Assembly (NCBI RefSeq): GCF_009914755.1
Contig: NC_060927.1
Source of the DNA: the human T2T-CHM13v2.0 reference genome, Homo sapiens
Length of the DNA: 64,000 nt
Reading direction: 5' to 3' (one strand)
Shown here: positions 10,436 to 36,964 of the stretch, in pieces
Position numbering within the stretch: position 1 is the stretch's first letter
How the letters are laid out: each line of letters starts with the position of its first letter
Position numbers and translations under genes: made by a program
Notes under the pieces: model-generated
What the model was told of the DNA's origin: nothing
What the model saw: the letters and a program-made list of their open reading frames with translations, nothing else
The model's database searches: none

Positions 10436-10925
10436 CAGCAGTTTGCAAACTGTAATACGCACCTGAATTATCTGAGAATCTTGTTGCAATGCAGATTCTG
10501 ATTCACTAGGTACTATGGTCTGAATGTTGATGTCCTCCCAAAAGTCACATATTGGAACTTAGTCTCCAATGTTATGGTATTGAGAGGTGGGGCCTTCAGG
10601 AGGTGATTTGGTCAAGAGGATAGGGCCCTCATGAATGGGATTAGTGCCCTTATAAAAGAGGCTTGAGGGAGCCCTTTGCCTCTTCCACCACGTGAGGACA
10701 CAGCAAGAAGGTACCGTCCATGAGGAATGGGCCCTCACTGAACGAGACACTGAATTTGCCAGCACCTTGATCTTGGACTTTCCGGCCTCCAGGACCGTCA
10801 GCAATAAGTTTCTGTTGTTTATAAATTACCTAGTGTAAGGTATTTTGTTATAACAGCCTGAACAGACTAAGTCACTAGGTCTATCCAGCTCCCAGGTGAT
10901 GCTGCAGGTCCACGACCGCACTGCA
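10436..10925. mobile_element. MER5A1-like MITE interrupted by MLT1A
   Basis: aatgcagattctgattcactaggt on the left resumes as ctaggtct...ctcccaggtgatgctgcaggtcc on the right. Confidence 0.6.
10511..10874 (+). mobile_element. MLT1A-family MaLR solo LTR
   Basis: tactatggtctgaatg...gggattagtgcccttataaaagag...acagactaagtca; perfect 5-bp TSD CTAGG at 10506-10510 and 10875-10879. Confidence 0.9.
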
Positions 10926-13330: not shown

Positions 13331-13649
13331 CTTAAAGTCAGGGAAAAAAAATCAGAAGTGTGATCAAAGCTTATGTTTTGTCACATTTAAAAGATGCTAC
13401 GAATCAGTTTAACATGCCAGTGCCCTTTATTTGATAAAGTACCATGTGTGAGATCCCACTTTGCCACGCCAAAGTCAATGACTCTGATGTTTTCCGTGCC
13501 GCTGAGTCACACGGTAGGCTACCTCTGGGTTTTCGATGAACTGAACTGTTATTTCAGAGGGAGGGAGGCGAAAAGGATTCATTATTCAATGCGTTTCAAA
13601 CCGGAGTCCAGGGGGGCGGGGGGGGGCGGGCCTGCGTTTAAAAAATAAC

Positions 13650-13845
13650 GCGTAATGGAGTTAAGATGCAGATTCTGGAGCCAGACTGTCTGAGTTCAAA
13701 GGCTCCTAATAGCTGGGCTCCTTAACCTCTCTGTGCCTCACTTCCTCGTCCGGAAATTGAAGCTAATAAGAGCACTGACTTCCCTGGGCGGCGGTTGAAG
13801 GCTACCTGTGTGGATCTGGGCACAGCGAAGAGCGGAGCCTTAACA
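13650..13845 (+). mobile_element. MIR inside the CpG island
   Basis: gttaagatgcagattctggagccagactgtctgagttcaaa...cttaacctctctgtgcctcacttcctcgtccggaaattgaagctaataa. Confidence 0.75.
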
Positions 13846-14120
13846 GGGTGAGCACGCCGGTTGCGCGCTCTCCAGAGCAGCCCAGCATCTCCCGCCAGCC
13901 TCGCTGCCCGCTCCGCCCCGGCGCAGGGGCCCCAAGCCCACAGGCAACGCCAGCGCGCTCCCAACCGCTGGAGACAGAAACAATGTGCGCGCGCACACGG
14001 CCCACGTGCACGCGCGCACGCCCACGCGGCATACAGGCGCGCACGTGCACACGCGCGCCTGCACAGCTCTGCGGCTCTGCTCCGGCCCCACAGGCCCATC
14101 TTAAAGTGTTTCGTGCTCTA

Positions 14121-14129
14121 ACTTACCAA
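14121..14129 (-). other. candidate 5' splice donor (minus strand TTG|GTAAGT)
   Basis: Plus-strand acttaccaa is the reverse complement of a consensus intronic GTAAGT donor, inside the CpG island. Confidence 0.4.
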
Positions 14130-14903
14130 ACACGTGGCAGCCGGCAGAACGAAAAGGAAAATAAATGAACTGCGACGAAATAAAGCAGGCCTTTCCGCAG
14201 TCGGCCACGTCCAACAGCCACTTGGTTCCTAGCGCTTTCTCGTTACCCGGCTTGGGCAAAGCCAGGGAAGAAGGGGATAGGACATAGGGATGGGTTAACA
14301 AAGCGGGAGCAACAGACCAAAGTAACCTCCTTGTATTGCCCCCCACCCCTCATCCCCTGGGGACACCGGCCTGGCTCCCGTGGGACCAGCATCGCCATCC
14401 CTGTCCCCTGTACGAGACTCTCCGCTGGGCCGAGGGCCGGGCTTGTGTTTGGGAAGGTGGGTGCCAGGGCCCGTGCTCAGCGACCTTCCAGAGCAACTGC
14501 ATCAAATGATGCTGGCTTTCTTCCCAGCCAGTCCCCAGCCACACCCATAGGGGACAGCAGTGGCAGCCCGGGACTCTATTTCCTGCCTACCCCTGGACAG
14601 GAAAGCCACCCGCAGGCGCCTTCACCTTGGTCCACGTCTCACTCGGATGATTCAACAAGGCTCTTTGGGAAAAAAAATTGAATTCGCCATTGAGAACACA
14701 CATAAGAAACCAATAATCATTTTTGGTTTTTATGATGGAAACAGGCACAAAAATCACAATTTTATATAGGTTCAAGACTGCTTCCTCTCAGCAGCCCAGA
14801 GCTCTTTAAAGTAAAAATAAAAATAATCTTTCAGGTTTTTTTCTTGTGTATCTTATGGAATGTATATTAAAGTCCTGAATGCTAAAACTCCATTGAAATT
14901 TTA

Positions 14904-17111: not shown

Positions 17112-17145
<34 letters not shown>

Positions 17146-17859
17146 CCTAAGATGGATAACATTTGCATGTGATTATCCAGGACTCAATGACAGTCAACAG
17201 GCAAACTACCATTCCATCCTCTGGGTAAGGCATTCCAGGTTCTGGTTAGAGGCCAAATGTGCTCATCTGGCTGCTGCCACAGTCAAGCCTTAGCCAACGT
17301 TATTGTCTTTATGTTAAATTAACTCATCACATTAGTGATGTACAGAATCTTGGGTAATGGAACAGGTACAATTTAAGGCAAGAGGAAGAAAGTCAGGCTG
17401 ATGAATCAATATCTTGGGTGAGGCACTGGAATAGGGGCTTTGGGAAGCTGGGGCTCTGGGCAGCTGACGTTCTGGAGAGGGTCTAAAAAGGAAAAAATGG
17501 GAACATGGCTCAAGAGATGGGCTAGGTTTAGACCATAACTTCACTCACTTTTCACTTTTCCTTGGAGCACATCAGTATAATATGAAGTTAGATTTGGGTT
17601 AGTTTCCATCAGTTTACATCAGCACAGATTTAACAAAGGACTCCACACATTCTGCCCCAGAAAGTTGACCTTGAAGGCTAGAGGGAGGAGGAATAGCCAC
17701 AGCTGCCACCAGGCTTCCTGATAGCCATTCTGCCGTGCATGGTCCATCATAGAAGGAGACTACATGCCCCAGCCTCCCTTGTTCAGTGTGGCCACCTAAC
17801 CCTATTCTGCTGCAAGGTAATTCGTGCAAGGGGTGTGTGCAGTGTCCCTGGAGTGTCCT

Positions 17860-18603: not shown

Positions 18604-18959
<356 letters not shown>

Positions 18960-19540
18960 TAGAGATACCTTTTAAACTTCATTTTGGTAAGGCATTTCCA
19001 CTTGCTCTTCCCAGGAACCTTTTTGCCAAAGCTGCTAACAAACTGAATGTATAACTGATCTAAATTATGTTTCTCCACACTCCTCTCCCACCTCCTGCTT
19101 CCCTACCTGCTACAGAATCAGAAATGTGTGTTAGCCCCCAAAGTGAGGAACACAGAGCAAGGGATTCTGTGTAAAACCATGCAGAAGAATCCATCCCCTC
19201 TCCTCTCCCCCTTCCCATAAGGACATACCACCAAGTCTCTGATTATAACCATTTCTCTTCTTTACAACTCTATATAAAAACTTATGCCCCTCCCCTCAAA
19301 AAAAAAAAAAAAGGACTAGATGGAAATACACCAAAGCAATACCTGGCTTTAATAAGGTGGTTGAATTACAAATATTTTCCTTTTATTTCTTTTAATGATT
19401 TTCCATAATGAAATGTGATTTTTACCTTTTAAAATTAAATGTTTACATTAAACTATTTTTTTCTACTTTATGCTTAAAATTTTTCATAATAAAAATTATG
19501 TTTTAAAATTTCAGAGCAATTTTACCTCTTATCCTTCTGT

Positions 19541-19598
19541 ATTATTTCAGCTCAGACTGCTTTAACGAAGTGCCGTAGATCAGACAGCTTTTAAACCA
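19541..19598 (-). mobile_element. displaced 3' end of the MLT1A LTR at 20174-20480
   Basis: Reverse complement tggtttaaaagc...gttaaagcagtctgagctgaaataat matches the MLT1A 3' terminus missing from the plus-strand copy. Confidence 0.7.
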
Positions 19599-19637
19599 CA
19601 GAAATTCCTTTCTTTTTTTTTTTTTTTTTTTTTTGAG
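19599..19637 (-). mobile_element. displaced Alu 3' tail and TSD
   Basis: Reverse complement reads ctc-poly(A)-gaaaggaatttctg; agaaaggaatttctg matches agaaatacatttctg (20466-20480) at 12/15. Confidence 0.75.
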
Positions 19638-20057
19638 GTCATTTCTCTGCCAAGTAAAGTCCAGACTAGGTATTCCTACTGGGTGGGCAGCTTCCCTCCA
19701 CATGGTGACTGGGGATCCATGCTCCTGCTCCTTCCATCTTGAACTCTGAAAGTGGCACAAACACTTCCACTCATATTCTGTTGGCTGTAGTTGTCACATG
19801 GACATGGAGAACTGCAAGGGAACCTGGGGGAATGTGGTCCTGTGGTATTCCCAGGGAAAAGAGGATAGTTTTGATGACCAGCTAGTTAGTTTCTGCTACA
19901 GAAAGTGACATAATTAGAAGAATGTAAACTCAGACCAGATTTCATTTGCCAGCATACCCTTAGGAGAGACCCTTCCATCATCACCCCTTAGATTCAATGA
20001 ACTGCTCAGCCAGGGAAAAACAAGGTTTGCCATCTGCCCCAAGATCACAAGTGAACT
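19636..20057 (+). repeat. left arm of 422-bp inverted repeat
   Basis: Reverse complement of 20745-21166; only mismatches seen are 19808/20994 and 20015/20787. Confidence 0.98.
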
Positions 20058-20173
20058 AACAATCACCAAGGATTTAGAGAAGATGATATGTTTGTGTTCT
20101 GGCATCAGGAAGAATGAGGGGGTGAAGGGAAGGCCAGAGAGCAGAGGATATTAAGGTAGCAAAGGTGGGAAGG

Positions 20174-20480
20174 TGTTATAGACTGAATGTTTGTGCCTTC
20201 CTTAAATTCATGTGTTGAAATCCTAACACCCAACATGATGGTATTAGGAGGTAGGGCCTTTGTTATGTGATTAGGTCTTGAGGATGAGGCCTTCATAAAT
20301 GAGATTAGTGCCCTTATAAAAGAAACTTCAGAGAACTCCCTCACCCCTGTTGCCATATGAGGCTACAGCTAGAAGATGGCCACCTGGGGACCAGGAAGCA
20401 GGCCCTCACCGGACACCAAGTCTGCTGGCACCTTGATCTTGGACTTCCCAGCTTCCAGAGCTGTGAGAAATACATTTCTG
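20174..20480 (+). mobile_element. MLT1A0-like LTR (3' end displaced)
   Basis: tgttatagactgaatgtttgtgcc...gattagtgcccttataaaaga...ccagagctgtgagaaatacatttctg, then interrupted by Alu. Confidence 0.88.
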
Positions 20481-20746
20481 GGCTGGGCGCAGTGGCTCAC
20501 GCCTGTAATCCCAGCACTTTGGGAGGCCAAGGCGGGTGGATCACCAGGTCAGGAGATTGAGACCATCCTGGCTATATAGTGAAACCCTGTCTCTACTAAA
20601 AACACAAAAAATTAGCCAAGCGTCATGGTGGGTGCCTGTAATCCCAGCTACTCAGGAGGCTGACGCAGGAGAATGGCATGAACCTGGGAGGCAGAGCTTG
20701 CAGCGAGCCAAGATTGTGCCACTGCACTCCAGCCTGGGCAACAGAG
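20481..20746 (+). mobile_element. AluY/Sc-like body lacking its tail
   Basis: Full 5' end; gagaccatcctggcta, gagaatggcatgaacc, gagcttgcag; stops abruptly at gggcaacagag. Confidence 0.95.
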
Positions 20747-21166
20747 TTCACTTGTGATCTTGGGGCAGATGGCAAACCTTGTTTTTTCCTGGCTGAGCAG
20801 TTCATTGAATCTAAGGGGTGATGATGGAAGGGTCTCTCCTAAGGGTATGCTGGCAAATGAAATCTGGTCTGAGTTTACATTCTTCTAATTATGTCACTTT
20901 CTGTAGCAGAAACTAACTAGCTGGTCATCAAAACTATCCTCTTTTCCCTGGGAATACCACAGGACCACATTCCCCCAGGTTCCCTTGCAGTTCACCATGT
21001 CCATGTGACAACTACAGCCAACAGAATATGAGTGGAAGTGTTTGTGCCACTTTCAGAGTTCAAGATGGAAGGAGCAGGAGCATGGATCCCCAGTCACCAT
21101 GTGGAGGGAAGCTGCCCACCCAGTAGGAATACCTAGTCTGGACTTTACTTGGCAGAGAAATGACCT
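20745..21166 (-). repeat. right arm of 422-bp inverted repeat
   Basis: Reverse complement of 19636-20057. Confidence 0.98.
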
Positions 21167-21240
21167 TCAATTGTATTGAGCCACAAAAATGCTGGGGCTT
21201 GTTTGTTACAGCAGTGAGCCTACACTAACCAATAATACAC
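20901..21240 (+). mobile_element. MLT1(I/J)-like LTR; partial inverted copy lies in the left arm
   Basis: tgtagcagaaac...cacattcccccaggttcccttgcag...ggggcttgtttgttacagcag; 3' end present only on this side. Confidence 0.65.
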
Positions 21241-21624
21241 TGTTAATCTTTCATGTCTGCTAGACGTGCTTAGTAATGGTGCTCTGAATTCATGTAATTA
21301 GAAGTAAATTTGACTGCAGAGATCAAGGAAGCTCCCCTTTTTGGAGGACTTGCAACCTGAGCAATTTTGTAATCATACTACAATAGGGAGGTATTGCCCT
21401 TGATGTTTCCCATGAAATCTCATAGGATTTTCCAGATAACTGTATCTTTCCTCAATGGAAGCAGTTTTAGACAGGGAGCCTAGATTCTCTGCCCCTAATT
21501 ATCAGCAGAATGATGCATGAATCACCCAACCCCTATAAGCCTCAGAAATTATACAATCATTTTAGAGATGGACAATACCAACGGTTGTAACAACTAACTG
21601 TGGCTGAGTTACAGGTAGGGTTAA

Positions 21625-36085: not shown

Positions 36086-36377
36086 CATTTTGGATGGTGT
36101 TTCTGTGTTTCTATAATTCATCTGACTCTCAGAAAAGAGAGGTATTTTTGAAACAATCCCTTATAGGCTGGGCACTGATGTGGGGTAACAAAGCCTATAG
36201 TGTCTTGTCTTGCCAAATATTCTCTTTCTGTCATACAAAGAGCCAATGTTTTATATAAGATCATATTTTTATAGTTTTCTAAAGAAATTTTTAAGAGAAA
36301 GAATATGTTTTCATTTTGTCTTTTTTTAATGGAGCTGTACAAAATTGGCTTCAGAGCCACCTTTCATAAACATGTAG

Positions 36378-36734
36378 TGTTATGGGCCGAATATTTGCGT
36401 GTACCCAAACTTCCTGTGTTGAAATCCTAACCCCAAAGTTGATGGTATTAGGAGACAGGGCCTTTGGGAGGTAATTAGTCATAAGGGTGGAGCCCTCCTG
36501 AATGGGATTAGTGCCCTTATGAAAAAGACCCGGAAGAGCTCTCACACTTCTTTCCACCATGTGAAGATACAAGAAGTCGCAGTCTGCAACCCAGAAGAAG
36601 GCCTTCACCAGAACTGGCCATGCTGGCATCCTGATCTCAGATTCCAGCCTCCAGGACTGTGAGAAATAAATTCCTGTTGTTTATAAACCACTCAGCTTTA
36701 GTATTCTATTATAGCAGCCCAATTGACTAAGGCA
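36378..36734 (+). mobile_element. MLT1A-family solo LTR
   Basis: tgttatgggccgaat...gggattagtgcccttat...tatagcagcccaattgactaaggca. Confidence 0.9.
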
Positions 36735-36964
36735 CACAGAAAACTTGTATGTGTCTTCCAGCAGAAAAGCTGAGTCCCTCCAGGCCTTAGGGCCTAAGAT
36801 TCCAACTGCCCTGAAGGATGATGCTGTCATATCATGGTTAGTTGCAGCAATGAGAGGAGCTTTTCCAGTGCAGACCCCAATGCCTTAGCATCAAGCTTCC
36901 TGGACATCAGAGGATCTGTGCTAAGCAACAGATCAAAATTTAGGATGGGTGTTTCCCTTTGCAG

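What the first reader, a model, noticed from the sequence alone, without database searches (positions are those of the whole stretch)
19541..20746. One Alu and its host MLT1A LTR are split onto opposite strands, showing the spacer is inverted
Seen: the MLT1A 5' part and Alu body lie on plus (20174-20746), and the Alu ends abruptly at ...caacagag. The missing ctc-poly(A) tail, a 12/15 TSD match and the MLT1A 3' end lie on minus at 19541-19637; about 11 bp of Alu consensus is lost. With L/R the flanks, A the arm and B the spacer, the inferred ancestor is L-B'-A'-R and the present state is L-A-B-A'-R. Either one two-switch event made it, or A was first copied into the Alu (L-A-B'-A'-R) and the spacer then flipped by recombination between arms. 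The second route predicts a two-state, possibly recurrent, micro-inversion about 5 kb from the CpG island.
Basis: partly seen in the sequence, partly recalled or inferred. Interest (0 to 1): 0.7.

Follow-up and report, generated by a model that had tools for sequence, protein, structure and literature searches.

The report
Small inversion split Alu and LTR
A 689-base stretch of human chromosome 3 lies flipped between two near-identical 422-base mirror copies and cuts two old repeats in half; it is likely the scar of one DNA-copying error of an already known kind, and no flip-flopping between people is shown.

Summary
The rearrangement is real. Two inverted arms of 422 nt (2 mismatches) flank a 689-nt spacer. 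An Alu body and an LTR's 5' part lie on plus; the Alu tail and the LTR's 3' end lie on minus. The two LTR pieces are colinear on other LTR copies, the LTR's 5-bp target duplication matches 5 of 5 across the break, the Alu's 12 of 15, and 11 Alu bases are lost. An older repeat crosses the right arm's outer edge, so the left arm is the copy. Both new junctions carry 2-nt microhomology. This is the known delINVdup class, or type 1-3-4-2 template switch, at kilobase scale, about 5 Myr old by arm divergence (0.6-20). One two-switch event is the likelier origin (0.55); inverted insertion followed by a spacer flip (0.35) gives identical junctions and cannot be excluded from one haplotype. Toggling today is not shown: no row at this place in an inversion table of 41 genomes mapped to this reference, and no hit at estimated coordinates in four other supplements (two only partly searched). 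No coding gene is touched. An ordinary, well-resolved structural scar.

The parts
19533..19537 (-). second copy of the LTR's 5-bp target-site duplication
   Evidence: 5 of 5 identical to 20169-20173 on the other strand
19538..19613 (-). 3' end of the split solo LTR (MLT1A-like, recalled name), including the Alu's downstream target duplication 19599-19613
   Evidence: aligns to the last part of two other LTR copies in the window; ends in CA; duplication 12 of 15
19613..19637 (-). Alu tail: three bases and a 22-nt poly(A); new junction 1 with 2-nt microhomology at 19636-19637
19636..20057 (.). left arm A, the derived inverted copy
   Evidence: 422 nt, 99.5% identical to the right arm; the old repeat inside it stops at the outer edge
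20058..20746 (+). spacer B, inverted relative to the inferred parent (689 nt with the inner microhomology)
   Evidence: carries the LTR 5' part and Alu body on the strand opposite to their 3' ends
20169..20173 (+). first copy of the LTR's 5-bp target-site duplication
20174..20480 (+). 5' part of the solo LTR, ending in the Alu's upstream target duplication 20466-20480
   Evidence: 70-72% identical to two other LTR copies in the window; starts with TG
20481..20746 (+). Alu body, cut 11 bases before its tail piece; new junction 2 with 2-nt microhomology at 20745-20746
   Evidence: 75-89% identical to 8 other Alus of the window
20745..21166 (.). right arm A', the original copy
20903..21241 (+). 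older LTR-like dispersed repeat that runs across the right arm's outer edge into flank R
   Evidence: dispersed copies match 20903-21040 (L006, 71%) and 21100-21234 (L009, 72%); the R-only part scores 66 against a shuffle maximum of 33 in 1000

Best explanation
This is a 689-nt inversion flanked by an 11-nt loss on one side and a 418-nt inverted duplication on the other, which split an Alu and the LTR that holds it, and it likely arose in one replication event with two template switches. Shown: the arms, the split elements, both target duplications, which arm is the original, 2-nt microhomology at both junctions, net gain of 407 nt. Inferred: a nascent strand left its template just past the Alu's 22-nt A:T run, annealed by 2 nt to the opposite strand 1,120 nt ahead, copied 1,109 nt backwards to within 11 nt of where it had left, and rejoined the first strand at position 702 by another 2 nt (order 1-3-4-2; the mirror path on the other strand gives the same product). 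Arm divergence puts it near 5 Myr ago (0.6-20) if the arms were not homogenised. It is likely fixed in people and likely neutral.
For: Structure. Original arm. Microhomology of 2 nt at both junctions has a chance of 0.004 to 0.026 depending on how it is counted, and there is no long homology at either junction, so recombination between old repeats did not make it. [quoted passage not shown] The same pattern at kilobase scale was called delINVdup and ascribed to template switching (PMC5829575, sections read). It needs one event, not two. No other orientation is listed in 41 genomes mapped to this reference, whose table holds chr3 calls of 336-551 nt (PMC10150506 Table S1, 11 chr3 rows, none between 28.4 and 60.9 Mb). 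Validated recombination-made inversions in one survey had repeats of 654 nt or more (PMC6748972, passage); here the longest perfect tract is 206 nt.
Against: The junctions are the same under the insertion-first route. At kilobase scale local inverted insertions outnumber delINVdup 27 to 1 in one genome (PMC5829575 Table 2), and inverted duplications were the commonest inversion class, 277 of 733 (PMC12350158, passage). That the two Alu halves were cut only 11 nt apart is natural for an insertion at a break and needs an extra assumption (gap filling up to the stall point) in the one-step path. With prior odds of 10-27 and a flip rate of 1e-6 per generation, the two-step route would be favoured, 0.66-0.84 (the rate is unknown). 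No ape or second human haplotype could be read here. The four-point model was built for short events, not for 1.1 kb.
Confidence: 0.55

Rival explanations
1. Two steps: a 418-nt inverted copy of the neighbouring DNA was first inserted at a break in the Alu's 3' end with loss of 11 nt (order 1-4-3-2), and the spacer later flipped by recombination or template switching between the new, then identical arms.
For: Same junctions and microhomology. The first step is the commonest small inversion-type variant and its targets often sit at simple repeats (PMC5829575 passage), as here beside a 22-nt T run. Arm to spacer ratio is high, 422 to 687, and that ratio goes with frequency and recurrence (PMC6748972 passage). 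Validated repeat-flanked inversions reach down to 140-nt repeats (PMC13629690 section 4). Posterior 0.16-0.84 for prior odds 10-27 and rates 1e-7 to 1e-6.
Against: Needs a second event and its spread. The other orientation was not found in the catalogues searched. Two mismatches remain in the arms. Posterior 0.003-0.05 at a rate of 1e-8, and 0.03-0.20 if the short-range type ratio is the right prior at rates 1e-7 to 1e-6.
Confidence: 0.35
2. Breakage and end joining between sister chromatids: three breaks, with the piece B'-A' of one sister joined back to front between L and the A'-R of the other.
For: Microhomology of 2 nt is also typical of end joining (established knowledge); gives the same product.
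Against: Needs three breaks on two chromatids within 1.1 kb; duplication is the feature that PMC5829575 uses to tell template copying from shattering.
Confidence: 0.07
3. The rearrangement happened while the Alu was inserting (target-primed reverse transcription with local inversion and duplication).
For: Both new junctions lie at the Alu's 3' end.
Against: The Alu's target copies differ at 3 of 15 bases and it keeps only 6 CpGs against 13-14 in the two closest Alus of the window, while the arms differ at 2 of 422: the Alu is far older than the arms. The tail and downstream target copy are regular.
Confidence: 0.02
4. Assembly artefact of this reference.
For: Only one haplotype was read here.
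Against: The arms differ at 2 positions; no misoriented region was found in this reference with 41 genomes (PMC10150506 passage).
Confidence: 0.01

Closest known systems
delINVdup complex structural variant (Collins 2017, PMC5338099, passage seen; Frith and Khan 2018, PMC5829575, sections read)
   Same: Inversion with a deletion at one breakpoint and a duplication at the other; deleted and duplicated sequences are unlike and of different length; template switching proposed.
   Different: Smaller (11-nt loss, 418-nt duplication, against about 600 and 930 nt in the Frith and Khan example); lies in the reference itself and was read from split repeats without an outgroup; probably fixed.
Four-point template switch type 1-3-4-2 / 3-1-2-4 (Loytynoja and Goldman 2017, PMC5453318, passages seen)
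   Same: Same order of switch points, same product: new inverted repeat around an inverted spacer, no prior repeat needed.
   Different: Copied piece is 1,109 nt; that model was applied to short mutation clusters, so the jump of 1.1 kb needs an uncoupled fork or a resected gap (inference).
Recurrent inversions between inverted repeats (InvFEST/HsInv set; PMC6748972 passages, PMC13629690 sections 4, 7, 13)
   Same: Spacer flanked by repeats of over 90% identity in inverted orientation, high repeat to spacer ratio.
   Different: Arms are shorter than the 654-nt minimum of the 24 recombination-made cases in PMC6748972; a second orientation is not recorded; the arms were made by the event rather than inherited as old repeats.
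Local non-tandem inverted duplication with target deletion (PMC5829575; PMC12350158 passages)
   Same: Identical pair of junctions; arm size near the reported median of 284 nt.
   Different: In that class the spacer keeps the parent orientation; here it does not.

Membership tests
delINVdup | an inverted segment relative to the parent | tested here: met
   LTR and Alu halves on opposite strands, colinear on other copies, both target duplications matched
delINVdup | deletion at one breakpoint | tested here: met
   11 nt missing against 7 of 8 Alus of the window; far below the size seen in the class's large-variant catalogue
delINVdup | duplication at the other breakpoint, unlike the deleted sequence | tested here: met
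   422-nt arms, right arm original
delINVdup | parent state seen directly in another haplotype or species | not testable with these tools
   no primate genomes are held (no relatives)
four-point template switch 1-3-4-2 | order of switch points 1, 3, 4, 2 with the middle piece reverse-complemented | tested here: met
   points at 0, 11, 702, 1120 on the inferred parent
four-point template switch 1-3-4-2 | one event, not a 1-4-3-2 event plus a later flip | tested here: inconclusive
   junctions identical under both; posterior depends on an unknown flip rate
recurrent repeat-mediated inversion | inverted repeats of over 90% identity at both breakpoints | tested here: met
   99.5% over 422 nt
recurrent repeat-mediated inversion | both orientations present in a population | tested here: inconclusive
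   absent from the catalogues searched; absence from a catalogue is not a genotype, and repeats under 1 kb were not screened unless already predicted
recurrent repeat-mediated inversion | shared haplotypes or SNPs between orientations, or polymorphism in apes | not testable with these tools
   no population or ape sequence available
MLT1A LTR and AluY subfamily names | best match to the named consensus in a repeat library | not testable with these tools
   names are recalled; only likeness to other copies in this genome was tested

The most novel reading that the evidence does not exclude
The locus is an uncatalogued two-state switch caught with its birth record: an inverted insertion created 422-nt arms, the 689-nt spacer has since flipped, and both orientations still exist in humans or apes, hidden because both share the same junction sequences. 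It would be among the smallest repeat-flanked recurrent inversions whose starting orientation is known for certain, and would show small inverted duplications turning into inversion hotspots.
Probability: 0.12. Interest if true: 0.5.

Novelty: new member of a known kind. Interest (0 to 1): 0.27.

Why it matters
As it stands, little: an intronic stretch of a predicted lncRNA, 5 kb from a CpG island, with no coding gene touched. Its use is as a clean worked example: split repeats give the parent state, both junctions and the copied arm without any outgroup. If the spacer were found in both orientations it would give a direct test of the shortest repeat that can drive recurrent inversion, and of whether some delINVdup variants are really inverted insertions that flipped later.

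Tried and rejected
(1) A MIR-like remnant that I thought ran across the A|B junction was not detected by a profile built from MIR-like copies of the window (no hit at 19960-20170 among 15 hits up to E 10), and a genome search of that junction gave only the locus itself (2 of 2 matches). That junction's parent status therefore rests on elimination. (2) A permissive alignment of arm plus flank to two dispersed copies was too noisy to use and was replaced. (3) Polarising the arm differences: at 20994, 4 of 5 dispersed copies share the right arm's base and none the left arm's, but 3 of the 4 are near-identical to each other; the second difference has no outside copy. It does not separate the routes. 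(4) An inverted Alu pair as trigger was rejected: the neighbouring Alu (18695-18966) was parallel to this one in the parent and became inverted only through the event. (5) One search's net gain of 409 counted microhomology twice; one search gives 407. (6) Catalogue searches without a hit: PMC10150506 supplement 2; PMC13629690 supplements, GRCh38 place estimated as chr3:43,899,98x-43,901,51x from the 15,655-nt offset at 44.7 Mb; PMC1270012 table S1, whose only chr3 row at 43 Mb is about 267 kb away, hg17 place estimated from recalled offsets and my positive control at 44.7 Mb absent; PMC12350158 supplements, file cut and not all places shown; PMC6749001, 12 of 14 files; full-text search for variant ids and the lncRNA name, 0 papers. 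Two further papers with the largest human and ape variant tables were not held, and bioRxiv supplements were closed, so the locus may be listed where I could not look.

Full report
1. Observation. The window holds an inverted repeat with arms at 19636-20057 and 20745-21166 and 687 nt between them. The arms are 422 nt and differ at two places. No other repeat of 93% identity or more exists in the window, and a genome search found only these two near-identical copies among 6 matches. The spacer carries, on plus, the 5' part of a solo LTR (20174-20480) and an Alu body (20481-20746). The Alu tail and the LTR's 3' end lie on minus at 19637-19538. The family names MLT1A and AluY are recalled, not tested.

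2. The two halves belong together. Aligned separately to an intact LTR copy of the window, the plus piece covers positions 19-325 and the minus piece 320-390; the minus piece scores 44 against a shuffle maximum of 28 (0 of 2000), and 29 on a second copy (2 of 2000); control pieces score 13-19. The LTR starts with TG, ends with CA, and its 5-bp target duplication is identical on the two sides of the break, on opposite strands (about 0.001 by chance). The Alu's target duplication matches 12 of 15. In 7 of 8 other Alus of the window 11 bases lie between the end of this body and the start of this tail piece; the eighth has 13. So the parent had L joined to the reversed spacer with 11 more bases.

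3. Which arm is new. A dispersed repeat on chr8 matches 21100-21234 at 72%, across the right arm's outer edge at 21166. The part beyond the arm scores 66 alone against a shuffle maximum of 33, while the flank beyond the left arm scores 20. The right arm is therefore in its original place and the left arm is the copy. The A|B junction is taken as parental by elimination; a MIR-like remnant that I looked for there was not detected. Parent: L, 11 nt, B', A', R. Present: L, A, B, A', R. Net gain 407 nt.

4. Mechanism. Both new junctions have a 2-nt microhomology and nothing longer; the chance of two such is 0.004-0.026. Junction 1 lies two bases from a 22-nt T run. On the parent the switch points fall at 0, 11, 702 and 1120, the order 1-3-4-2, with 1,109 nt copied backwards. 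Loytynoja and Goldman report this order as an observed type that makes an inverted repeat around an inverted spacer, 23% of 794 human-chimp events, against 31% for 1-4-3-2 (PMC5453318, passages). Frith and Khan show a kilobase example, name it delINVdup and prefer template switching (PMC5829575, parts 2 and 3 and passages); the class is among those listed by Collins 2017 (PMC5338099, passage). I infer a stalled nascent strand that copied the exposed opposite strand back to near its stall point and then rejoined; that step is not shown.

5. The rival. An inverted insertion into the Alu (order 1-4-3-2) followed by a flip of the spacer gives the same junctions. Such insertions are much commoner at this scale: 27 against 1 delINVdup in one genome, 277 of 733 inversion-type calls in 1,019 people (PMC12350158, passage). 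A simple calculation gives this route a posterior from 0.003 to 0.96 across prior odds of 1.35-27 and flip rates of 1e-8 to 1e-5 per generation, so the answer hangs on a rate nobody has measured for 422-nt arms. For it: the arm to spacer ratio is high, which goes with recurrence, and validated cases exist with repeats from 140 nt. Against it: the 24 recombination-made inversions of one survey had repeats of 654 nt or more, the longest perfect tract here is 206 nt, and the other orientation is not recorded. I put one step at 0.55 and two steps at 0.35.

6. Age. Two differences in 420 nt give about 5 Myr at 0.43-0.5e-9 per site and year, interval 0.6-20 Myr; they fit a human-chimp level of divergence (P 0.12), barely a gorilla level (0.04) and not an orangutan level (0.0002) (rates and divergences are recalled values). 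Gene conversion would make the arms look younger than they are. The Alu is older: 3 of 15 target bases differ and it keeps 6 CpGs against 13-14 in its two closest relatives in the window.

7. Is it polymorphic or in print? Porubsky 2023 Table S1, inversions of 41 genomes against this reference, has 11 chr3 rows, three of them 336-551 nt, and none between 28.4 and 60.9 Mb. The 612 repeat-flanked candidates of Moreira-Pinhal 2026 gave no hit at the estimated GRCh38 place, but that set screens reference repeats only from 1 kb up unless a prediction existed. Feuk 2005's human-chimp list has no row here, which would fit an event shared with chimpanzee but is weak, since my coordinate control was also absent. 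Partial searches of two more supplements and a full-text search found nothing. Tables that I could not open may list it. The likeliest reading is a fixed, uncatalogued event.

8. Function. By the annotation given with the finding, the locus lies in the first intron of a predicted lncRNA on minus; the CpG island is at 13401-14550. A transcript through it would fold into a stem of about 420 pairs (421 of the first 422 bases paired in the predicted structure). There is no evidence that this matters.

9. Verdict. Observation confirmed, reconstruction supported, class known, toggling unshown. New member of a known kind; interest 0.27. The most novel open reading, both orientations still present in humans or apes, has probability 0.12.

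Noticed in passing
window 19636-21166: A transcript of the predicted lncRNA through the locus would form a stem of about 420 pairs; on that strand one of the two arm differences would be an A opposite C, a context recalled as favoured for RNA editing.
   Followed up: partly
window 18695-18966 and 20481-20746: The event turned two parallel Alus into an inverted, head-to-head pair 1.5 kb apart (85% alike over 137 nt).
   Followed up: partly
window 13401-14550: CpG island (observed/expected about 1.0 over 500-nt windows) with no annotated gene start in the table given.
   Followed up: no
window 10508-10880 and 36377-36745: Two more LTRs of the same broad family, uninterrupted, 70-72% alike to the split one.
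   Followed up: partly
window 17130-17156 and 19298-19324: Two poly(A) runs followed by similar 12-nt flanks (85% over 27 nt); probably chance.
   Followed up: no
L003, L004, L005 (chr1, three places): Three dispersed copies of the older LTR-like repeat give identical scores and context, as expected of a segmental duplication.
   Followed up: no
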